A stretch of 64,000 bases of DNA from Limisphaerales bacterium. GTDB taxonomy: Bacteria > Verrucomicrobiota > Verrucomicrobiia > Limisphaerales > DSYF01. Below the pieces are notes generated by a model that searched no databases, was not told where the DNA came from, and saw only the letters and a list, made by a program, of their open reading frames with translations. Made by a program: the position numbers and the translations under genes. The stretch spans positions 9,881 through 73,880 of the forward strand of contig JBKBTZ010000003.1 in assembly GCA_046290825.1 (NCBI GenBank). The letters run 5' to 3'. Below are positions 578-32,601 of this stretch, one piece after another; position 1 is the stretch's first letter; the number at the start of each line of letters is the position of its first letter.

Positions 578-3500
578 TCAAGGCACCAGCCGGATCCGGT
601 AGTAGCGTTCGGGGGAGGTGGCCGCGTTGTCGGTGAAGTTGGTTTCCCCGCCGATACCCGTGATGACGCCGCCGAGGTTCTGCCACGCGCCCAAGACCAG
701 GTTGGTGCGGAATTCGACCTGATACCGCGCGCCCGGCACCGTCTGCCAGCGCAGATGGGCTGCGTTGCCGGAGACGGACGTTGCCGCAAGGGTGGGCGGC
801 GGGAATGCGGTGCAACACACACGGTTCGAGGTCACGAGGGTGACCGTCCAACCGCCCGGAATCGAGCCGCCCTTGGTGCTGAGGAAATCCTGAACATACA
901 GCTTCCACTCACCATTGGGCGTGGCCGCGAGGGCATTGACGCTGGTGCCGTAAGGTCCGGCTGGCGCGGGGGCGGTCAGCGGCGGGGCGCTGTTGTCCGT
1001 AGGCAACCAGGTGCCGGAGAGCAGCACGCCCCCATCGCCCGGAACGGGGCCGGAGGCATTGTCGTCAAAAACCAGTTGCGCGCTGCTGGCCGTCGCGGCC
1101 CCCGGGTAGCCCAGCAGCATGACCGTCTGCCCGCCGGGGCCTTCCGCCAGCACGGCGATGTCTGAAACGCGGGTGTGCGACAAACCATTCAGGCGGATGG
1201 TGGTTTTGATCACGTTTCCGTCCACGCCCGCCACGTTGACCCGTCCGGGATATGGCAGCGCGGTGCCGAAGGTGTTGATGGTAATGGGCGCCGTGCTGGT
1301 GAACTGCTGCGTCACGACCACCGGGCTGCCCATGGGAATGGCCACCACGGGCTGGCCGAGCACTGCCGCGTTGTCCGTCAGGCGAACCTGGGCGTTGACG
1401 TTGCTGGCGCACGGCCCGCTGGCGGTGAAGGTAAAGGCCCGGGTCACCATCTGGCCGGGGGCAATGACCCCGAGCGTCTCCGCCGGACCGGGCGCGAGGA
1501 CGCCGTTGGTCGCCAGCAAGGTGGCCAGGAGATTCGTGGTGGAGGCGAGACCGATGTTGCGGAAACGCAGTTCCATCGTGACCGTTTCGCCCGGGTCCAC
1601 GTTTTGGTTGCCGGGCGGACAGGATTCCAGAAGCACCGCGCCTCGTTCCACCACCAGCAGGGGAATCGGCAGCCCCGGCACCACGGTAAAATTGGTGTCC
1701 GAGACATCGTAGAAAATGTTGCCCGCCCCCTCGACCTTGATGCGGGCACGCGTCGAGGAAACCGGCGGCAGCACGACCTCGGCAGCGCCGGTGTTGGGCA
1801 CATTGCTGGCCAACAGGAATGGGAAATGGAGGCCTCCGTTGGTCGAGAGCCAGATGTTGACCCCGGCGGTGTTGATCGGCGCTGCCGCCGTGCCCGCGAC
1901 GTTCCACGTCACCGTCTGCACGTTGGACCAGGTAACCGCCGAGTTGGGCGCGGTGACCACGAATGGCCCGGCGTTGCTGATCACGGTGACGGTGGTGTCC
2001 GCGTCCGCCACGCCTCCGCCACCGGCGCGATTGTCGCGCACGGTAACGCGGAACTTCATGGTGCGGTTGAGCACCGGCAGCTTCTCCTGGTTCCAGTTGG
2101 TGTTGGCCAGCACACTGGTCAAGCGCGGGAAGAAGCGGGTTGGATTGTTGGTGGGCGGGAACGAGCGGAACAGCGGGCTGCTGCCGTTATCGGGGTCATT
2201 GAGTGACTGGGCCGCGCCGGTATCCATCTGCTCCCAGCAATAGGTGAGGGCATCCCCGTTGGGATCCGCGGCAATGGCAGTGAGCGCGAAGGGGGTCCGC
2301 GCCGGAATCACGTAGGCCGGTCCCGCATCCACCGACGGGGCGGCGTTGCCCGTGGGCACGTTGGCCGCGCAGGCGCCGCCGCTGCCGTTCAGGAACGCGA
2401 GAATCTCCGCCAGGCTGGTGGCGTGGAAATAGGGGTCGCTGTTGGGCTGCAGGTTGTTGGGGGCGCAGATGCCCGCGTAGGCCATGATGGTCGAACCGCT
2501 GCCCGGCTCGGTGGCGGTCGAGGCGTTCCGGTTGCCAAAACCGCAGGAGCCGCTGGTGGCGTTGAAGGTGTGGTTCGCGCCGAACTGATGTCCCATTTCG
2601 TGCGCCACGTAGTCCACCCAGAAGCTGTCCCCGGTGGGCGACGAACTGCCCGTCACTCCCTGGGCCTTGCGGGTGCTGCTGCACACGCTTCCCAGCGATG
2701 CCACACCGCCGCCACCCGTGCTGAACACATGGCCAATATCGTAGTTCGCGGAACCGATGATGCTGTTCACGGTGGTCTGGTTTTGCGTCAGCATGGTGAC
2801 CCCGTCATCGTTCGTGTAGGGATCGCTGCCGGGGTTGGTAAAGACCAGAAGGTCGTTGTTGGCCACGAGGATGAGCCGCACGGCAAACTCCCGCTCGAAG
2901 ATCCCGTTGATGCGGTTGATCGCAGTCACAATGGCCGCCTGGCCCTGGGCCACCGTGCCGCCGTGAAACTGCGTGTATTCTCCCGTGGCCGCGCAGGCCA
3001 GCCGGTAGGTGCGCAGCGTGGCGCCGAACAACGTGCGCTCCCCCTCGGGCCGGGGCAACACGCCCGGAACCGTTTCCCCACCCGGCACAAGACATTGGAA
3101 CGCTCCCGCTTCACGCCACTGCTCCGCCCGGCGGTAGCTCACATAATGCGTGGTGTCCCCGCGATACGCCGGATCCACATAAATGGCCCCTTCCGGCCCG
3201 AGGACCTGCGCATGGAAGCCGGCGGGAGTCACGTCGGCGCGCAGCGTGGTGGCCGGATCATCCACCGCCTCGCCCGCGAAGGTCTTGATCTCCGGGAATT
3301 TCACCGCCAGGCCCGGTTCCATGATGCTGGTCTCCACCACCCGAAACCACCGAACCTCCCCGTCCGGCAGGGGCACCGGCAGGAGCGCGCCCGCCGTGCG
3401 GGCCTGCCACGGTTCCCCCGAAGGCACCGCGCCCAGGCTCCCGCGAAACGCCGCCTCGTCCCATGCGAACATCGCTCCCCCCGTCGGCGCCACCCAACGC

Positions 3501-3658
3501 TCAACACCGGCACGGGACGCGGGTGGTTCCGGCAGATGCGTCCAAAGAATGTCAGACTGCGCCATCGCGGCGCCGGTCAGACCAATCAGGGCCAGACCGC
3601 CGGACCAGCGGCGAAGGCCGCGCCAAACAGGTAGGATAATTACGAGGATGAATTTCAT
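578..3658 (-). CDS. secreted reprolysin-like (metzincin) zinc metalloprotease with P-domain-like and C-terminal Fn3-like modules
   Basis: ORF 578..3952 trimmed to ATG 3658 (MKFILVIILPVW, signal-like). It has the HEMGHQFGANH motif (HExxHxxGxxH) and an IMAY Met-turn. It also has a DPNGDALTY module and CARDB-like and proprotein-convertase P-domain-like segments. Confidence 0.8.
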   Translation of the reverse strand: MKFILVIILPVWRGLRRWSGGLALIGLTGAAMAQSDILWTHLPEPPASRAGVERWVAPTGGAMFAWDEAAFRGSLGAVPSGEPWQARTAGALLPVPLPDGEVRWFRVVETSIMEPGLAVKFPEIKTFAGEAVDDPATTLRADVTPAGFHAQVLGPEGAIYVDPAYRGDTTHYVSYRRAEQWREAGAFQCLVPGGETVPGVLPRPEGERTLFGATLRTYRLACAATGEYTQFHGGTVAQGQAAIVTAINRINGIFEREFAVRLILVANNDLLVFTNPGSDPYTNDDGVTMLTQNQTTVNSIIGSANYDIGHVFSTGGGGVASLGSVCSSTRKAQGVTGSSSPTGDSFWVDYVAHEMGHQFGANHTFNATSGSCGFGNRNASTATEPGSGSTIMAYAGICAPNNLQPNSDPYFHATSLAEILAFLNGSGGACAANVPTGNAAPSVDAGPAYVIPARTPFALTAIAADPNGDALTYCWEQMDTGAAQSLNDPDNGSSPLFRSFPPTNNPTRFFPRLTSVLANTNWNQEKLPVLNRTMKFRVTVRDNRAGGGGVADADTTVTVISNAGPFVVTAPNSAVTWSNVQTVTWNVAGTAAAPINTAGVNIWLSTNGGLHFPFLLASNVPNTGAAEVVLPPVSSTRARIKVEGAGNIFYDVSDTNFTVVPGLPIPLLVVERGAVLLESCPPGNQNVDPGETVTMELRFRNIGLASTTNLLATLLATNGVLAPGPAETLGVIAPGQMVTRAFTFTASGPCASNVNAQVRLTDNAAVLGQPVVAIPMGSPVVVTQQFTSTAPITINTFGTALPYPGRVNVAGVDGNVIKTTIRLNGLSHTRVSDIAVLAEGPGGQTVMLLGYPGAATASSAQLVFDDNASGPVPGDGGVLLSGTWLPTDNSAPPLTAPAPAGPYGTSVNALAATPNGEWKLYVQDFLSTKGGSIPGGWTVTLVTSNRVCCTAFPPPTLAATSVSGNAAHLRWQTVPGARYQVEFRTNLVLGAWQNLGGVITGIGGETNFTDNAATSPERYYRIRLVP

Positions 3659-3911
3659 GGTTGTGGGGGTGGGCAAGGTTGCGCCCGGTCTAACCAAACC
3701 CAGGTCGGAACACAATCCGTGAATAGGTCGCGCTTGGGAATCAGGGCGTCCACACCAGTTGCCGTGAGGCAGGGCCGGGACAAGGCGGTCGGCAGAGCGC
3801 GGGAAATTCTTTCCCCCCACGCGGGTAGAGGCCTCCCCTGCTGACGGCACACAGCCAACTACCTCCCGACAAAAGCAATGAGCTCCACTGACCGCCCGCT
3901 CCAAGCGCCCA

Positions 3912-6900
3912 TCAAGGTTGCACCAGGATTCGGTAGAACCGCATCGGTTCATTCGGCGCCGCGTTGGTGATGCTGAGGAGCGTGTTGGTGCCGGGCACGG
4001 GCGCGCCCAGGTTTTGCCAAGAGCCGCTTGTGAGGTTGGTGCGGAATTGCACCTGGTAATTGGGGCCGGGCACTGCCGCCCACGTCAGCCGCGCCACGCC
4101 GTTCGACCAGGTGGTGCTGGTAAAGACCGGCGCGGGGAGCGTGCCGCAACAGACGGTGTTGGTGACCGCGGTCACAAACCGCAGCGTCCAACTGGCCAGC
4201 AATCCTGCGTCGGGCGACGCATAATCGAAGAAATAGAGGGACCAGGTGCCATTGGGTGAAACCGCCAACGGGGCCAGACGATAATCGTAATACCAACCCG
4301 GCGCCGGCGGGGGCAAATCGTAAGGCCCGGCTTCGCCATAGTAGTAATCGGTGGGCTGGTAGGTGCCCGAGGGAATTCCACCGGAATACGGCACGAGGCT
4401 CGCGGCCTCATCGTCGAAGGTCAACGTGATGCCGTTCACCGGCCCCGGATAGGTATAGCTCATGAGAATCGTGCGTTGTCCGTTGGGTGCGGCAAGCAAC
4501 ACGAACACGTCCTCCACGTAGGTGTGTGTCAGGCCGTTCAATGAAACGGTCATTTTGGTAACCGGGTTGGTCACACCGGACACGTTGATGGTAGAGGGAT
4601 ACGGCAGCGCGGTATTGTTGTCGCGGATGGTGATGGGCGAGGCGTTGTTGAAGACCTGCGTGACGACGTTGATCTGCGGCGCCCCTAGGTTGAACACCCG
4701 ACTGCGCGTGCCGTAATTGGCGGGCCCGTCGGCCAATTGCACCACCCCGGTCACCGCTCCGCCACACGGACCACCCGCCGTGAAGGTGAAGGGCCGCGAC
4801 ACGACGCCGCCGGGCGGAATGACACCATAGTTTTGCGGCGCACTCGGGAAATAGACCCCGTTGGTCGCCAGCAGCGTCGCCACCAGATTGGTGGTGGGCG
4901 CATTGCCGGAGTTGGTGATGGCCCAGTTGAGGGTCACCGTTTCATACGGGTCCACCACGCCGTTGGTCGGCAGGCAGCTTTCGGCCAGCAGCGTGACTGG
5001 CCCGACACTCAAATCGGGCGCAAGCGTGCTGATGGTGAAATTCACATCGGAGACGTCGTAAAAAATGCCGCCCGCCGCCTCGACCTTGATGCGCGCCTGC
5101 GTCGAGACCAGTCCCTGCACGTTGATGGTGCGTGAGCCGGTGTTGGGCACGTTGGTCGCAATCCAGTGCGGCCAGGTCTGCCCGCCGTCGGTGGAGAGAA
5201 AGATATTCACGTTGGCAACATTGATGGGCGATGACGCCGTTCCGGCCACATCCCATGTCACGGTGTGGGTATTGGACCACACGAGGGCGGTGTTGGGCGA
5301 AGTGACGCGGAAGGGCGCGCCAGTGTTGATCACATTAACCACGGTGTCGGCATCGGCCACACCGCCGCCCGCCGCGCGGTTGTCGCGCACCGTGACGCGA
5401 AAGTTGAGCGTGCGCGTGGTGGCGGGCAGCACCTCCTGGTTCCAGTTGGTGTTGGCGAGCACGCTGCTCACACGCGGAAAGAACCGCGTCGGACTGTTGG
5501 TCGGCGGGAGCGACCGGAACAGCGGGCCGCTGCCGCTGTCCATTCCCGTCAATCCGCTGGCCGGCCCCAAATCCCGCTGTTCCCAGCAATAGGTCAGCGC
5601 GTCGCCGTTTGGGTCCGTGGCGCTGGCGGTCAGGAAAAAGGGCGTCCCCGCCGGAATGGTGTAAGGCCCGCCCACGCTGACGGTCGGCGCGCTGTTGCCC
5701 GTAGCGGAGGTGGCCGCGCAACTCACGCTGGACAAAAATGCTTGGATCTCATCCAAGCTGGCCGTGTGAAAGTAGGCGTCCCCCTGCGATTGCAAATTGT
5801 TCGGCGAACAAATCCCCGCGTAGGCCATGATGGTGGAGCCGCTACCCGGCTCGTAGGCCGTCGAGGCATTCCGATTACCACCGCCGCAACTGCCGCTGGT
5901 GGCGTTGAAAGTATGGTTTGCGCCCAATTGATGGCCCATTTCATGCGCCACATAATCCACCCAGAAACTGTCCCCCGTTGGCGACGAACTGCCCGTCACG
6001 CCGCGCGCCTTGATTCCCGTCGTGCAAACACAGCCCAGGGTGGCAATCCCGCCCCCGCCCGTGCTGAACACATGCCCAATGTCGTAATTGGCGCTCCCGA
6101 TGATGGCGTCCACGGTGGCCTGGTTCTGCGATAACATCGCAGACCCGTCGAAGTTGTCATAGGGATCGGTCCCCGGGTTGGTGAAGACCAGCAGCGAGTT
6201 GTTGCCCACCAGCACCAGCCGCACGGCCAGTTCCTTTTCGAAAATGCCGTTGATGCGGTTGACCGCCGTCACAATCGCCGCCTGCCCCAAGGCCACCGTC
6301 CCGCCGTGAAACTGCGTGTATTCCCCCGTCGCCGCGCACGCCAGCCGGAAGGTCCGCAGCGCCGGCCCGGACTGCGTCTTTAATGCCGTGCCGCCGCCCG
6401 TTGCGATCGTTTCACGCAGGACAGCGCATTGCCACTCTTCCGCAAGCGGGACGTTGTCGCGCTTGTAGTAGCTCACCACATGATCACGGTCGCCCCGGAA
6501 CGCTGGATCCACGTAGATCGAGCCGTGCGGTGAAAGAATCTGCCCGTGAAAGCCGGCGGGCGTCACATCAAAGCGCGCCGTCGCCTCGGGATCGTCAATC
6601 CCCTCCCCGGCGTAAGTTTTGACGTCGGGAAACTGCGCCGCGAGTTCGGGCGCCATCACCGGCGTTTCCACAATCCGGAATCGCGCCGTCCCGCCGTCGG
6701 GCATCGGCACTGTTACCACTCGTCCCACCGCAGAAATCTCGGATGGTTCGGCCGGGGCAACCTCGGCGAGTTCCACCGCCAGTTGGGAATGGTTGACCCG
6801 AAACACGCCACCCCGCTGAGGGGCCACCCATCGTTCCGGCCCGCCGCGTTGGGCGGCAACTTCACCCAGATACTCCCACGGAGAAGAAGCTGCCGAGGAC

Positions 6901-27561: not shown

Positions 27562-27789
27562 ATGATAAAGACGATTACGAAAATTGGAAATTCACAGGGG
27601 CTGATGTTCGATTCCGCCTTGATGGATTTGGCGCGCCTGCGCGTCGGCGACGAGGTGGCCGTGAGCGTGCATGAGGGCGGTTCGATTGTGTTGACCCCGG
27701 TGCGCCCGGTCATTACGCCCGCCAAGGCCGCAACCACGACAAGGCGGCTGATCAAGAAAAACGCGGAATTATTCCGTCGGCTGGCATGA
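27562..27789 (+). CDS. AbrB/MazE/SpoVT-type antitoxin
   Basis: 75-aa ORF: MIKTITKIGNSQGLMFDSALMDLARLRVGDEV (swapped-hairpin signature). ATGA overlaps doc. Confidence 0.75.
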   Translation: MIKTITKIGNSQGLMFDSALMDLARLRVGDEVAVSVHEGGSIVLTPVRPVITPAKAATTTRRLIKKNAELFRRLA

Positions 27790-28184
27790 GGAGTCCGCTG
27801 GCGCATCTCACGGTGGAGGCGGTGAAGGCGATTCACGCCGAAGTGTTGAACGCACACGGCGGCGACACGGGATTGCGCGAGGAAGCATTGTTGGAATCGG
27901 CCGTGGCCGCGCCGCAAGCGACGATGGCAGGCGAGCCGCTGTTCACGGACCCGGTGGAAATCGCGGCAGCGTATTTGTTTTACTTGTGCCGCAATCACCC
28001 GTTTGTGGACGGCAACAAACGAACGGCGCTGGCAACCTGTCTGGTGTTTTTGAGCGAGAACGATTTGCTGCCGAATGAAAAACTCGACGTGGATGCGTGG
28101 GAATTGTTGATACTGGACGTGGCGGACGGCCAACTTGACCGCGAGCAAACGACCCGGCGGCTGCGAAAGCTGCTGCTGCCATAA
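27786..28184 (+). CDS. doc: Doc (death-on-curing) Fic-family toxin
   Basis: 132-aa ORF with the Fic/Doc motif HPFVDGNKRTA. Confidence 0.85.
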   Translation: MRSPLAHLTVEAVKAIHAEVLNAHGGDTGLREEALLESAVAAPQATMAGEPLFTDPVEIAAAYLFYLCRNHPFVDGNKRTALATCLVFLSENDLLPNEKLDVDAWELLILDVADGQLDREQTTRRLRKLLLP

Positions 28185-28253: not shown

Positions 28254-28298
28254 TCTAACCCGCCCAAATCCCGACCCGGCGCCGACACTGACCCTATT

Positions 28299-28329
28299 TG
28301 TTGACATATCAACATTCCGGCGCTAAACA
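28299..28329 (+). promoter_or_regulatory. putative marR promoter with an overlapping 16-bp palindromic operator TGTTGA-CATA-TCAACA
   Basis: -35 TTGACA (28301..28306), 17-nt spacer, TAAACA (28324..28329), then 7 nt to ATG 28337. The palindrome 28299..28314 has perfect 6-bp arms. Confidence 0.5.
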
Positions 28330-28336
28330 TTACGTC

Positions 28337-28807
28337 ATGAACACCCGCCGCGCCGCCGACGTTCGTTACGAGGCCCTGCTGCACCTGCTCGCCACCGCCG
28401 ATACCGTCTGGAACGCCAGCCGCCTGTTCTTTGCCCGCTGGGACCTCAGCCCCAGCCAGTTCAATATTCTGAACCTCCTGTGCGGCGAGCCGGAGGGTCT
28501 CGCGCAAATCGAGCTGGGCCGCCGGCTCATCATGCACCGCTCGAACGTCACCGGCCTGGTGGACCGGCTGGAAAAGCGCGGCCTCGTGGTCCGCCGGGAC
28601 GACGCGCACGACCGGCGCGCCTACCGCGTGGTGCTCACCGCTGGCGGCCGTCGGCTGCTGGACGAGATTTACCCGCATTACCGCGCAGCGGCGGAAGCGG
28701 CCTGGGACGGCGTGAAGTCCGCCGTCATCGAACAAACGGTCACCGCCCTCACTCAAGTGGCGCGGAACGCGGAACAAATCGCGACCGCGCGGAAAGGCAC
28801 CGCATGA
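28337..28807 (+). CDS. MarR family transcriptional regulator
   Basis: ORF trimmed to ATG 28337. wHTH region: SPSQFNILNLL..LAQIELGRRLIMHRSNVTGLVDRLEKRGLVVRRDDAHDRRAYRV. Confidence 0.85.
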   Translation: MNTRRAADVRYEALLHLLATADTVWNASRLFFARWDLSPSQFNILNLLCGEPEGLAQIELGRRLIMHRSNVTGLVDRLEKRGLVVRRDDAHDRRAYRVVLTAGGRRLLDEIYPHYRAAAEAAWDGVKSAVIEQTVTALTQVARNAEQIATARKGTA

Positions 28808-30176
28808 ACTCCCCCGCCCCCGTGTCTGCAATCGGATGGAAGGCTCATGCCGCGTGGGCGTTGGTGGCGATTGTTTTCTTTCATCTGGCTCACGGCATCG
28901 GCACGGGTTGGTTGCTGCTGCCCTGCGCCTACGCCCTCATTGAAATAAGCCGGGCGGCCACGCGGCGGCTCGTCTTTTACCCAATGCTGGGCGTGGGCTT
29001 TCTGTTTTACGCGCCGCAACTGGGCTTCTTCTGGAGCATCTTCGGTCCCCCCGCCATCGCCCTTTGGCTGGTGCTGGCGTTCTGGATCGGACTGTTCGGC
29101 CTGTTGTTGCGGCTGGTGCGCCTGCGCTTCGGCAACGGCTGGATGCTCGCGCTGACGCCGTTTGTCTGGACCGGTCTCGAATACTTCCGCAGCGAACTCT
29201 ACTATCTGCGTTTTGGCTGGCTGACGTTTGGCATGGCGGGTTTGGTCCGGGCCTGGCCGCGCTGGGCGTCTTCGGCTGGGGCTTCGCGATCATGGCCGCC
29301 GCCGCCGGGCTGCACGCGCTGCGCAACAGGAAGCCCGGGTTCGCGGTGGCGCTGCTCACCTTGGGGCTGGTGGCCACGAGCGGGCTTTGGTTTCCAACAG
29401 CGGCAAAGGATGAAACCGGCGACGGACTGGCCGTTGCAGGAGTGCAGCTTGAATTCCCCGACGAGGCACAGGTGCTCGCCGGCCTGGACCGCGCCCGCGC
29501 GAGATTTCCCGATGCACAGTTGTTTTTGCTCAGCGAATACACCTTCCAAACGCCGCCGCCACCATCGGTTCTCGCTTGGTGCGCGTCCAACCAGGTGCAT
29601 CTCGTGGTGGGGGGCAAGGAGCCGCTCGGTGAGACCAACTTCCACAACATGGCCTACGTCATCAGCACCAACGGAGCCGTCGTCCATCAGCAGGCCAAGA
29701 GCGTGCCCATTCAGTTTTTCCAGGACGGCCTGCCCGCGCCGGAGCGCAAGGTCTGGGATTCGCCCTGGGGCAAGCTCGGTGTGCTGACCTGCTACGACCT
29801 GAGTTACACGCGCATCGTGGACGACTTTGTGCGGCAGGGTGCCATCGCGCTGCTGAACCCGACGATGGACGTGGTCGAGTGGGGCGAACATGAACATCGG
29901 TTGCACGCCCGCGTTGCGCCAATTCGCGCCGCCGAATACGGCATCCCCATCTTTCGGGTGGCCAGTTCCGGCATTTCGCAACTGGTCACTGCGCGGGGCC
30001 GCGTCGTTACTTCGGCTCCCTTCCCCGGAGAGGGCGAAACCATCGGTGGCCGGCTGCCGCTTAACGCCCAACCGCGCCTGCCACTGGATCGCTGGCTCGC
30101 GCCCGCGTGCGTTGGCATCACAGGACTGGCGCTGGCTCTCAGCCTCCTTCCCGCTCGCAAACGGAACCCATTGTGA
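28804..30176 (+). pseudogene. lnt: apolipoprotein N-acyltransferase-like (polytopic N-terminus plus CN-hydrolase domain) gene interrupted by a -1 frame change near 29239..29245
   Basis: Frame 1 (from ATG 28804, ATGA with marR) reads sensibly up to ..LRFGWLTFGMAG. The frame shifted by -1 continues GFGPGLAALGVFGWGF.. through the E/K/C triad context (LSEYTF, QQAKSVP, VLTCYD) to stop 30176. Confidence 0.7.
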
Positions 30177-30208
30177 ACTCGAAGAAACCCGACAATCCCG
30201 GCAGCCAT

Positions 30209-30390
30209 TTGGACTGCGGTGACCCATCACCGCGTTCCGTGAGCGACCTGTCGCTGTCGAATTGCCGCCGCAGCAGTTTTGGCGGCAGCCTGAACGCGAG
30301 GCGTCAGGCACCTGTCATTAGTCGCGTGTCTGAACGCGGCACTGCTTTGGCGAGCAGTCACCAAAGCAGCCCCTGGTCGTTGCACTCCAA
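30209..30390. repeat. diverged family F element (termini TTGGACTGCGGTGAC.. / ..GCACTCCAA)
   Basis: It shares the terminal inverted repeat and the internal hairpin CTGCTTTGG-N10-CCAAAGCAG with 10030..10223. It is followed by CATCCGTGGTTA, as at 10276..10287. Confidence 0.55.
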
Positions 30391-30435: not shown

Positions 30436-32601
30436 ATGATTCCCATCCTGCGCCTCCTGCTCCGCTTGTTGTTCGGGTTCCGGGCCTACGGCGCCGACGC
30501 GCTGCGCACGCCCGGCCCGGTGCTGCTGCTGCCCAATCACGTTTCGTGGTGGGACTGGCTGTTCCTCGGCGTGTGCCTCGACAAGGACTGGCGGTTCGTG
30601 ACCTCGGCGACGACGGCCCGGACCAGTTGGATTCACCGCCTCATCATGGTCAACCGTCGCACGTTCCCGGTGGAAAACGATTCGCCCTACGCGGTGAAGC
30701 GCATGGCCGAATACCTGCAAGGCGGCGGACGGCTGGTGCTGTTCCCGGAAGGCCGGCTCTCGCGCACCGGCTCGTTGATGAAACTGTTCGATGGCACCGG
30801 CTTTCTCATCCACAAGACGCGGGCCAGGGTGGTGGTCGGCTATCTGCGCAACGCCAACCAGCTCAAGCCCGCCGTGCATCCCGGGTTCACCCGCTGGTTT
30901 CCGCGTGTCTCGGCGCACTTTACCCCTGCGCTCACCGCGCCCCAGCCCGAGCACGTCAGCACCGCCGTGGCCCGGACGCGCATCACCAACTGGCTGCGGG
31001 ATGAAATGACGCGGCTGCAATTTGAGACCGAAATGGCCTTCGGCCCGACCACCGTGCCCGCCGCCATCGCCGAACGCGTGGCCGAGCGGCCAGGTTTCAA
31101 GGTGCTGGAAGACGTGACCTGGCAGCCGCTCAGCTACCGGCGAATTGCGCTGGGAGCCAAATTGCTCGCCGCCCAGTGGCGGGCACGCCTAAGCGGGGCG
31201 CAGGCAGGGCGGCCTGCGCTACCGTCGGAGCGCATCGGCGTCTTGCTGCCAAACGTCAACGCCCTGCCCGTGACTCTGCTCAGCCTGTGGCGCGCCGGGT
31301 TCACGCCCGCCATCCTCAACTACACCACCGGTCCCGCCGTCATGCTGGCCTGCGCGGAACTGGCGGGGCTGAAACACATCATCACCGCGCGCAACTTCCT
31401 CGCGAAAGCCCGGCTCGACGTGAAACCTCTGGAACAGGCGGGCGTGCAATTCCATTACCTCGAAGACGTCCGCGCGAGCATCGGCGCGGGCACGAAGCTG
31501 GCCGCGCTGGTGGCCAACTGGTTCGCCCCGGCGCGCGGCCTCACCACCCCGCAAACCGCTGACGACACCGCCGTGGTGCTGTTCACCAGCGGTTCCGAAG
31601 GCGTGCCCAAGGGCGTCGAACTTTCCCATCGCAACCTGCTAGCCAACCTCCGGCAAATGTGCGCGGTGTGTGATTTGCAGGACACCGACCGGTTCTTCAC
31701 CGCGCTGCCGTTGTTCCACAGCTTTGGGCTGACGGTCGGCACGCTCCTGCCGCTGGCGCGCGGCGCGCGGGTGTTCTTGTATCCGTCGCCGCTGCACTAC
31801 CGCGTGGTGCCGACGGTGCTCTACGACAAGGACGCGACGGTGTTCCTCGCGACCAACACCTTTCTCGCCGGCTACGCGCGCAAGGCGCATCCCTATGACT
31901 TTCGCAGCCTGCGCTACCTGTTTGCCGGCGCGGAAAAGGTTCAGGAAACGACGGTCCGCCTGTGGAGCGACCGCTTTGGCGTGCGCGTGCTCGAGGGCTA
32001 CGGGGCGACCGAATGCAGCCCGTGCATCAGCGTGAATGTGCCATTGCAACCCCGCCCCGGGAGCGTGGGGCGGCTGCTGCCCGGCATGGAGGGACGCGTG
32101 GAACCCGTTGAGGGCGTGACCGAGGGCGGCCGCCTGTTCGTGCGCGGGCCGAACGTGATGAAGGGCTATCTGAACCCGGAGGCCGACGCGAAGTTCCGGG
32201 CGCTCGGCGGCTGGTATGACACCGGGGACATTGTTCACGTGGATGAGGACGGATTTCTGCACATTCGCGGGCGGCTGAAACGCTTTGCGAAGGTCAGCGG
32301 CGAGATGGTCAGCCTGACCGCGGTCGAAGAGGCGCTGGCTGGCGCGTTCCCGCACTACGGCCTGCGCTTTGCCGCCGCAGTCGTCGCCATGCCCGATGCG
32401 GACAAGGGCGAACGTCTCATCGCCGTCACCAACGAATCCCGGCTGACGCTGGAAGAAGTGCGGAACGCCATCAAGGCCAGGGGCCTGAGCAACCTCGCCG
32501 TGCCGCGCGAAATCAAGGTGGTGCGGGAGATTCCCAAACTCGGCACGGGGAAGGTGAATCATCGCGAACTGGAGCGGGTGATACGGGAGGAAACGGTGTG
32601 A
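30436..32601 (+). CDS. aas: bifunctional 2-acyl-GPE acyltransferase / acyl-ACP synthetase (Aas-like)
   Basis: ORF trimmed to ATG 30436. PlsC-type HX4D motif (NHVSWWD) and FPEGRLSRTG, followed by AMP-binding motifs (LFTSGSEGVPKGV, YGATE, GDIV). Confidence 0.85.
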   Translation: MIPILRLLLRLLFGFRAYGADALRTPGPVLLLPNHVSWWDWLFLGVCLDKDWRFVTSATTARTSWIHRLIMVNRRTFPVENDSPYAVKRMAEYLQGGGRLVLFPEGRLSRTGSLMKLFDGTGFLIHKTRARVVVGYLRNANQLKPAVHPGFTRWFPRVSAHFTPALTAPQPEHVSTAVARTRITNWLRDEMTRLQFETEMAFGPTTVPAAIAERVAERPGFKVLEDVTWQPLSYRRIALGAKLLAAQWRARLSGAQAGRPALPSERIGVLLPNVNALPVTLLSLWRAGFTPAILNYTTGPAVMLACAELAGLKHIITARNFLAKARLDVKPLEQAGVQFHYLEDVRASIGAGTKLAALVANWFAPARGLTTPQTADDTAVVLFTSGSEGVPKGVELSHRNLLANLRQMCAVCDLQDTDRFFTALPLFHSFGLTVGTLLPLARGARVFLYPSPLHYRVVPTVLYDKDATVFLATNTFLAGYARKAHPYDFRSLRYLFAGAEKVQETTVRLWSDRFGVRVLEGYGATECSPCISVNVPLQPRPGSVGRLLPGMEGRVEPVEGVTEGGRLFVRGPNVMKGYLNPEADAKFRALGGWYDTGDIVHVDEDGFLHIRGRLKRFAKVSGEMVSLTAVEEALAGAFPHYGLRFAAAVVAMPDADKGERLIAVTNESRLTLEEVRNAIKARGLSNLAVPREIKVVREIPKLGTGKVNHRELERVIREETV

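What the first reader, a model, noticed from the sequence alone, without database searches (positions are those of the whole stretch)
29233..29247. Lnt-like gene changes frame exactly at a G_GGT_TTG (X_XXY_YYZ) heptamer
Seen in sequence: the N-terminal frame reads ...FGWLTFGMAG (codons atg gcg ggt ttg). The only sensible continuation (GFGPGLAALGVFGWGF..., carrying the CN-hydrolase E/K/C contexts) is in the -1 frame. The junction is g-ggt-ttg in the zero frame, the formal pattern of a -1 slippery site. A -1 slip would give a seamless ...GMAGLGPGLAAL... product. Established knowledge: homopolymer runs are also hotspots for true 1-nt deletions and for sequencing errors. Lnt is normally essential in diderms. 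The three options are a pseudogene, an assembly error in the GGG/TTT run, or programmed -1 frameshifting. The zero frame stays open for about 180 further codons, which is uninformative at this GC content. I see no obvious SD-like stimulator upstream.
Basis: partly seen in the sequence, partly recalled or inferred. Interest (0 to 1): 0.6.

Follow-up and report, generated by a model that had tools for sequence, protein, structure and literature searches.

The report
One-base deletion breaks Lnt-like paralog
A spare copy of a lipoprotein-acylating enzyme gene has lost a single base in a short G/T run, which splits it into two reading frames; every relative examined has the extra base and one intact gene, so this looks like an ordinary fresh gene break rather than programmed frameshifting.

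Summary
An Lnt-like gene (ATG 28804) reads ...FGMAG in frame 0. It continues as FGPGLAAL... to the stop at 30176 only in the -1 frame, and the junction is g_ggt_ttg at 29238-29244.

The programmed-frameshift reading is not supported.
- Three related populations from other studies (93-94% nucleotide identity) each carry exactly one extra base at this site: GCG GGG TTT, GCA GGG TTT and GCG GGT TTT. All three encode MAGFG in one ORF.
- The junction lies inside one stop-free match in 86 of 87 related loci, and 108 of 120 listed homologs hold both halves in one chain.
- A -1 slip would put Leu where the closest relatives have Phe.
- The downstream RNA folds no better than shuffles, and no SD-like element lies upstream.
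- The heptamer phase follows automatically from deleting one base in GGGG-TTT or GGG-TTTT.

The genome has a true lnt elsewhere (288 bits against a cut-off of 132.9), so this copy is a dispensable paralog. It was found in only 7 of 30 relatives.

An independent assembly of the probable source run reproduces the deletion. No other frame split was found in 109 other conserved intervals of this MAG.

Best reading: a real, recent 1-nt deletion (about 0.78). Read error is about 0.12. Functional recoding is about 0.04.

The parts
28804..29244 (+). N-terminal membrane part of the Lnt-like paralog, frame 0 (147 codons, ...FGWLTFGMAGL)
   Evidence: It is 88% identical to residues 1-146 of the intact relative P0001. 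No Pfam or NCBIfam hit at E<=0.01 on its own. The family profile aligns this region to the membrane domain of solved Lnt structures.
29238..29244 (+). Lesion site: GGGTTTG. It is one base shorter than in all close relatives and formally matches X_XXY_YYZ in frame 0.
   Evidence: table 4: X2 has +G behind 29237, X3 has +A behind 29237, and X10 has +T behind 29240. The X1 contig is identical to the window.
29241..30176 (+). C-terminal part in the -1 frame (FGPGLAAL... to stop TGA 30174-30176): two predicted membrane segments plus the CN-hydrolase domain
   Evidence: PF00795 at 6.9e-10. TIGR00546 at 54.7 bits, below the cut-off of 132.9. 91% identical to P0001 residues 147-455.
28298..28807 (+). 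Upstream MarR-family regulator gene. Its TGA stop (28805-28807) overlaps the Lnt-like ATG (28804-28806).
   Evidence: PF12802 MarR_2 at 2.1e-16. The overlap was read.
30436..32601 (+). Downstream Aas-like gene (acyltransferase + AMP-binding acyl-ACP synthetase fusion)
   Evidence: PF01553 at 2.4e-15 and PF00501 at 4.1e-60. The same neighbour lies in G006 and G002. It is present within 600 nt downstream on the same strand in 24 of 73 related loci with enough flank.

Best explanation
The gene is a non-essential Lnt-like paralog: a membrane domain plus a CN-hydrolase domain, in a marR / lnt-like / aas-like gene row. In this population it has lost one base from a 4-base homopolymer. The ancestor read either GCG GGG TTT or GCG GGT TTT, and the window reads GCG GGT TTG. 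The loss shifts the frame after Gly-146. Translation from ATG 28804 would then give the first four or so membrane helices followed by about 180 out-of-frame residues, without the catalytic domain. The gene is therefore most likely inactivated, that is, a very young pseudogene. Shown here: the length difference from all relatives, the intact state of the relatives, the presence of a true lnt elsewhere, and the reproduction of the deletion in a second assembly. Inferred: that the deletion is present in the cells rather than being a read artefact, and that the product is non-functional.
For: (1): contigs from three other studies lie on the gene at 93.2%, 94.0% and 92.7% identity (103/1508, 73/1215 and 58/792 other letters). 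Each has exactly one gap, a single inserted base at 29237/29240. The results are GCG GGG TTT, GCA GGG TTT and GCG GGT TTT. These are synonymous variants of M-A-G-F, which points to selection on one continuous frame. (2): P0001 (457 aa, 91%) and P0002 (443 aa) read FGMAGFGPGLA in one chain. (3): orthologs in all 7 relatives' genomes that have the gene lie in single open frames of 481-631 aa. Only G000 has two frames. (4): 108 of 120 listed homologs hold both halves in one chain, and 86 of 87 loci have the junction inside one stop-free match. (5): a true lnt lies at G000:C248 (288.4 bits against a cut-off of 132.9) and is a single 561-aa ORF; the paralog was found in only 7 of 30 relatives, so its loss is tolerable. 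(6): the Logan contig of run X1 (6924 b, depth 11) matches the window with 0 other letters and 0 gaps, so the MAG's assembler did not create the deletion. (7): among 110 distinct conserved intervals of G000 compared with G002 ORFs, only this gene is frame-split. The same rule found 154 of 179 simulated 1-nt deletions, so the assembly is not indel-prone. (8): 92 of 92 columns that are >=95% conserved in 108 full-length homologs are kept in the window. There is no second lesion, so the break is recent.
Against: No raw reads were seen, because X1 is held only as contigs. X1 is probably the source of the MAG, so it is not independent at the level of reads. Contigs drop minority variants, so an intact allele could coexist in the population. 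The complete preservation of conserved residues (92/92) fits equally well with a sequencing error or with a gene still expressed by recoding. Loss of function was not tested. Twelve of the 120 listed homologs are short (228-368 aa, on contigs of 902-4219 b). Three of them start at the Met of the FGM motif. Their contigs could not be inspected, so other split forms cannot be fully excluded.
Confidence: 0.78

Rival explanations
1. Sequencing or consensus error: the organism has the intact GGGGTTT or GGGTTTT, and one base was lost in the reads or in assembly polishing.
For: The site is a short homopolymer pair. The gene is otherwise perfectly preserved (92/92 conserved columns). The genome is a fragmented MAG (315 contigs, 86.6% complete). 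The only run that holds the exact sequence is the probable source, so there is no independent sample with the deletion.
Against: A second, independent assembly of that run gives the same sequence at depth 11 with no alternative contig. None of 109 other conserved intervals show a frame split, with 86% detection sensitivity. Runs of 3-4 bases are not typical error hotspots (general knowledge, not tested here).
Confidence: 0.12
2. Programmed, or at least functionally useful, -1 ribosomal frameshifting at G_GGU_UUG, giving a full-length ...GMAGLGPGLAAL... enzyme.
For: The heptamer has the formal X_XXY_YYZ phase. The downstream frame is fully intact, with all conserved residues. A review abstract (PMC5009743, seen in the listing) notes that frameshifting can serve as translational 'correction' of indels.
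Against: The split is not conserved. None of 87 loci and none of 3 close populations share it. The slip product would carry Leu where the closest relatives have Phe. The downstream 86 nt fold at -37.9 kcal/mol against a shuffle mean of -44.4 (z +1.69), and 195 of 200 shuffles fold at least as well. No GGAG-like element lies in the 20 nt upstream (read). In passages read from PMC4066793, the efficient E. coli motifs are V_VVA_AAR, H_HHU_UUY, U_UUA_AAG, C_CCC_CCC and A_AAG_GGG. G_GGU_UUG is in none of these classes. The U_UUG tetramer is only 1.8-3.6-fold above a background of about 0.06%, even with a pseudoknot. The phase of the heptamer follows from the deletion itself.
Confidence: 0.04
3. Two-piece enzyme: the two halves are made as separate polypeptides and assemble, with an internal restart for the C-terminal part.
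For: Three database homologs (P0004, P0007, P0080) begin at the Met of the FGM motif. This could hint at separately called C-terminal parts.
Against: In the window that Met is in the upstream frame, not the downstream one. The break lies inside the membrane domain, which aligns to Lnt residues 77-233. Those three proteins sit on contigs of 1347-3863 bases and may be truncated calls. No split was seen in the 87 loci.
Confidence: 0.03

Closest known systems
Apolipoprotein N-acyltransferase Lnt (TIGR00546; E. coli and P. aeruginosa structures 5n6h, 5xhq, 6nwr, 5vrg)
   Same: An N-terminal polytopic membrane domain followed by a CN-hydrolase domain. The family profile hits Lnt structures at about 1e-8, including the F-x-W-L-x-F-G membrane motif just before the break and the Cys context (CYD against CYE). 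JGI names many homologs apolipoprotein N-acyltransferase.
   Different: It scores 54.7 bits (window C part) and 72-88 bits (intact relatives) against a cut-off of 132.9. The genome's true lnt scores 288. The protein is shorter, at about 457 aa. Its distribution is patchy, in 7 of 30 relatives. Its substrate is unknown.
Bacterial programmed -1 frameshift sites (dnaX A_AAA_AAG; IS3/IS911 A_AAA_AAG with SD and hairpin or pseudoknot)
   Same: The formal X_XXY_YYZ phase at the junction between two overlapping frames.
   Different: The motif is outside the efficient classes reported for E. coli (PMC4066793 passages). There is no stimulatory structure and no SD-like element. The site is not conserved, and orthologs are unsplit. 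The dnaX and IS features are recalled from general knowledge.
Frameshift pseudogenes from homopolymer contraction (slipped-strand replication error)
   Same: A single-base length difference in a G4 or T4 run relative to intact close relatives. There is one lesion only, and a paralog covers the essential function.
   Different: The run is short (3-4 bases), unlike the long tracts of phase-variable contingency loci (recalled). Reversible switching is therefore not expected.

Membership tests
Programmed -1 ribosomal frameshift signal | Slippery heptamer X_XXY_YYZ in the zero-frame phase | tested here: met
   g_ggt_ttg at 29238-29244. However, such heptamers occur at 2.16 per 1000 codons in this genome, and the phase is forced by the deletion.
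Programmed -1 ribosomal frameshift signal | Motif belongs to a class that shifts efficiently in bacteria | tested here: not met
   Passages of PMC4066793 list the efficient classes as V_VVA_AAR, H_HHU_UUY, U_UUA_AAG, C_CCC_CCC and A_AAG_GGG. G_GGU_UUG is not among them. These are E. coli data, not from this organism.
Programmed -1 ribosomal frameshift signal | Downstream stimulatory hairpin or pseudoknot, or upstream SD-like element | tested here: not met
   z +1.69, and 195 of 200 shuffles fold at least as well. No GGAG/AGGA in 29218-29237. Pseudoknots were not modelled.
Programmed -1 ribosomal frameshift signal | The split and the heptamer are conserved among orthologs | tested here: not met
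   None of 87 loci are split at the junction. All 3 close populations have one more base. 108 of 120 homologs are single chains.
Lnt equivalog (TIGR00546) | Score over the curated cut-off of 132.9 bits | tested here: not met
   54.7 bits for the window C part. 71.9, 88.1 and 75.7 bits for the intact P0001-P0003. The true lnt of the genome scores 288.4.
Lnt equivalog (TIGR00546) | CN-hydrolase domain with conserved catalytic contexts | tested here: met
   PF00795 at 6.9e-10. 92 of 92 family-conserved columns are kept. The Cys context aligns to Lnt. Assignment of the E/K/C triad residues themselves is by recall.
Lnt equivalog (TIGR00546) | LNT_N membrane domain (PF20154) | tested here: inconclusive
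   No hit for the window N part or for P0001/P0002 at E<=0.01. P0003 hits at 5.2e-12, and many homologs carry a precomputed PF20154.
Frameshift pseudogene (homopolymer indel) | One-base length difference from intact close relatives, in a homopolymer | tested here: met
   table 4..
Frameshift pseudogene (homopolymer indel) | The lesion is present in the DNA of the organism, not only in the assembly | tested here: inconclusive
   A second assembly of the probable source run agrees. No other split was found in 109 intervals. Raw reads were not available.
Frameshift pseudogene (homopolymer indel) | Loss of function of the product | not testable with these tools
   Inferred from separation of the catalytic domain from the start codon.

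The most novel reading that the evidence does not exclude
The deletion is real, and the resulting G_GGU_UUG heptamer lets a small fraction of ribosomes slip -1. A fresh indel in a membrane acyltransferase would then be partly rescued by translation ('savior' frameshifting), giving a full-length enzyme with Leu in place of Phe at the junction. This would be a nascent recoding site caught at birth.
Probability: 0.05. Interest if true: 0.45.

Novelty: already known. Interest (0 to 1): 0.1.

Why it matters
It matters little beyond correct annotation. The gene should be marked as a frameshifted (pseudo)gene of an Lnt-like paralog, not as a recoding candidate and not as loss of the essential lnt. 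A general lesson for the scan follows. When a frame change coincides with an X_XXY_YYZ heptamer, a one-base loss in two adjacent homopolymer codons produces that phase automatically. The phase is therefore not independent evidence for programmed frameshifting. The Lnt-like paralog family itself may deserve study in its own right. It is widespread in Verrucomicrobiota-named metagenome records, sometimes sits next to an Aas-like lysophospholipid re-acylation gene, and has an unknown substrate.

Tried and rejected
- Searches used coordinates one base off and failed. They were corrected.
It was reworded.
- RNA evidence: no RNA holder was listed for the stretch, so expression could not be assessed.
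- phmmer of the C part against PDB sequences found nothing at E<=0.001. The family profile did find matches.
- The contigs of the 12 short homologs were sought among the fetched loci and not found, so it could not be decided whether they are truncated or split.
- Earlier notes of the scan on this genome: none fit.
- Transcriptional slippage and phase variation were considered and set aside, because the runs are only 3 bases long. This is general knowledge and was not tested.
- A chimeric de Bruijn path between G4T3 and G3T4 strains was considered and rejected by reasoning. The deleted form's words would not exist in either strain's reads.
- Structure prediction and complex prediction were not run, because they would not bear on the question.

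Full report
**Observation.** The window sequence reads atg gcg ggt ttg gtc at 29233-29247.
- Frame 0 starts at ATG 28804 and gives MNSPAP...YYLRFGWLTFGMAGL. It then stays open, out of register with any homolog, to 29787 (ORF 28480..29787).
- The -1 frame (ORF 29064..30176) gives ...GGFGPGLAALGVFGWGF... and runs to the TGA at 30174-30176.
- That frame holds a CN_hydrolase domain (PF00795, E 6.9e-10) and a partial match to lnt (TIGR00546, 54.7 bits, cut-off 132.9).
- The heptamer g_ggt_ttg sits at 29238-29244 in X_XXY_YYZ phase.

**What the gene is.** It is not the organism's lnt.
- The assembly (G000: 315 contigs, 86.6% complete) has a true lnt on contig C248. It scores 288.4 bits, over the cut-off, and is a single 561-aa ORF.
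- The window gene belongs to a separate Lnt-like family. Its intact members score only 72-88 bits on the lnt model.
- A profile of 11 members hits solved Lnt structures at about 1e-8. The match includes the membrane motif F-x-W-L-x-F-G directly before the break and the Cys context of the hydrolase domain.
- Sources name the homologs 'apolipoprotein N-acyltransferase' or leave them unnamed, and the organism names given are Verrucomicrobiota/Verrucomicrobiae.
- With P0001 as query, the paralog was found in 7 of 30 relatives' genomes: 3 of 6 in the same family and 4 of 24 in other families of the order. In each it lies in a single open frame of 481-631 aa. It was not found with this query in the other 23.
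- The gene's ATG overlaps the TGA of an upstream MarR gene (ATGA at 28804-28807).
- An Aas-like acyltransferase/acyl-ACP-synthetase fusion follows at 30436-32601. The same neighbour is present in G006 and G002. It lies within 600 nt downstream on the same strand in 24 of 73 related loci with at least 400 nt of flank.

**Relatives at the junction.**
- The closest database protein, P0001 (457 aa), is 88% identical to the N part and 91% identical to the C part. It reads ...FGWLTFGMAGFGPGLAALGVFG... in one chain, and P0002 (443 aa) reads the same.
- Of the 120 homologs listed, 108 align to both halves in one chain. The other 12 are short (228-368 aa) and come from contigs of 902-4219 bases. Three of them begin at the Met of the FGM motif. 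Their contigs were not among the fetched loci, so whether they are truncated or split stays open.
- 87 loci with DNA were examined: 80 from metagenome contigs and 7 from relatives' genomes. In 86 of them the junction (query residues 125-175) lies inside one stop-free tblastn match.
- The exception, L049, has an in-frame stop at a different place, query residue 111.

**The decisive comparison.** This comes from laying public contigs on 28700-30300.
- Run X1 is flagged as the possible source of this DNA. It gives one contig of 6924 bases at depth 11, identical to the window (0 other letters, 0 gaps).
- Three runs from three other studies carry relatives: X2 at 103 differences in 1508 bases, X10 at 73 in 1215, and X3 at 58 in 792.
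- Each has exactly one gap, and it is at the site: +G behind 29237 (X2), +A behind 29237 (X3), +T behind 29240 (X10).
- The three sequences are GCG GGG TTT, GCA GGG TTT and GCG GGT TTT. They differ only at synonymous positions and all encode M-A-G-F-G in one frame.
- The window (GCG GGT TTG G) is what remains when one G is lost from GGGG or one T from TTTT.
- Because the relatives have GGG/GGT and TTT as in-frame codons, any such loss leaves XXX YYY as -1-frame codons. That is an X_XXY_YYZ heptamer in the upstream frame. The 'slippery' phase is a by-product of the lesion, not independent evidence.
- In-frame heptamers of this form are in any case common. There are 76 in 35,179 codons of 89 conserved coding stretches of this genome, or 2.16 per 1000 codons, about one per gene of this size. 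GGGTTTG itself occurs 0 times in that set.

**Programmed frameshifting.**
- The split is not conserved.
- A slip would give Leu where the nearest relatives have Phe.
- The 86 nt downstream fold at -37.9 kcal/mol against -44.4 ± 3.8 for shuffles (z +1.69), and 195 of 200 shuffles fold at least as well.
- I see no GGAG-like element in the 20 nt upstream.
- In the passages I read of Sharma et al. 2014 (PMC4066793; passages only, not the figures or supplements), the efficient E. coli motifs are V_VVA_AAR, H_HHU_UUY, U_UUA_AAG, C_CCC_CCC and A_AAG_GGG. The U_UUG tetramer is 1.8-3.6-fold above a background of about 0.06% even with the IS3 pseudoknot. Motifs without a stimulator reach at most about 10 times background.
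- G_GGU_UUG falls in none of the efficient classes. Its own value is in a figure I could not see.
- A low level of accidental slippage cannot be excluded. The abstract of PMC5009743 (seen in the listing only) mentions translational 'correction' of indels.

**Mutation or error.**
- The deletion is reproduced by a second assembly of the probable source run, so the MAG's assembler did not create it.
- As a control for indel-prone data, I took 586 stop-to-stop ORFs of at least 200 aa from 21 stretches of the same-family genome G002 and searched G000 with tblastn.
- 180 ORFs had a hit of at least 50% identity over at least 100 aa. These fall in 110 distinct intervals, and some queries are antisense shadows.
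- Only the Lnt-like gene showed two adjacent matches in different frames. It had been included as a positive control.
- The same rule recovered 154 of 179 simulated mid-gene 1-nt deletions.
- The assembly is therefore not generally frameshift-ridden.
- The gene carries no second lesion. All 92 columns that are at least 95% conserved among 108 full-length homologs are kept. This fits a very recent deletion, but equally an error.
- Raw reads were not available, and contigs hide minority alleles.

**Verdict.** This is a real, recent one-base deletion in a dispensable Lnt-like paralog (0.78). Rivals are read or consensus error (0.12), useful recoding (0.04) and a two-piece enzyme (0.03). The finding is ordinary.

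Noticed in passing
window 28804-28807: The MarR-family gene (28298-28807) and the Lnt-like gene overlap by ATGA, with stop and start sharing bases. This suggests one operon with translational coupling.
   Followed up: partly
window 30436-32601; L006, L007 and 24 of 73 related loci: An Aas-like fusion (acyltransferase PF01553 + AMP-binding PF00501) follows the Lnt-like paralog on the same strand. From recalled E. coli biology, Aas re-acylates the lysophospholipid left by Lnt, so the pair may form an acyl-transfer and repair module.
   Followed up: partly
L049 about 2843: A distant relative of the paralog (50% identity, metagenome contig) has an in-frame stop at the position of P0001 residue 111. 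This is a second, independent broken copy in the family.
   Followed up: partly
P0004, P0007, P0080: Three database homologs begin exactly at the Met of the conserved W-L-T-F-G-M motif. They may be truncated gene calls at contig ends, or genuinely separate C-terminal parts. Their contigs could not be inspected.
   Followed up: partly
Alignment column after FGM; L006 ORF 1452..2993: The segment just after the FGM motif varies greatly in sequence and length among homologs. G006 has about 56 extra residues, giving 513 aa against 457. The deletion therefore falls at the edge of a poorly constrained linker.
   Followed up: no
window 27786-28184 (+): A 132-aa ORF contains ...NHPFVDGNKRTA..., which resembles the Fic/Doc toxin motif (recalled, not searched). 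It lies just upstream of the MarR gene.
   Followed up: no
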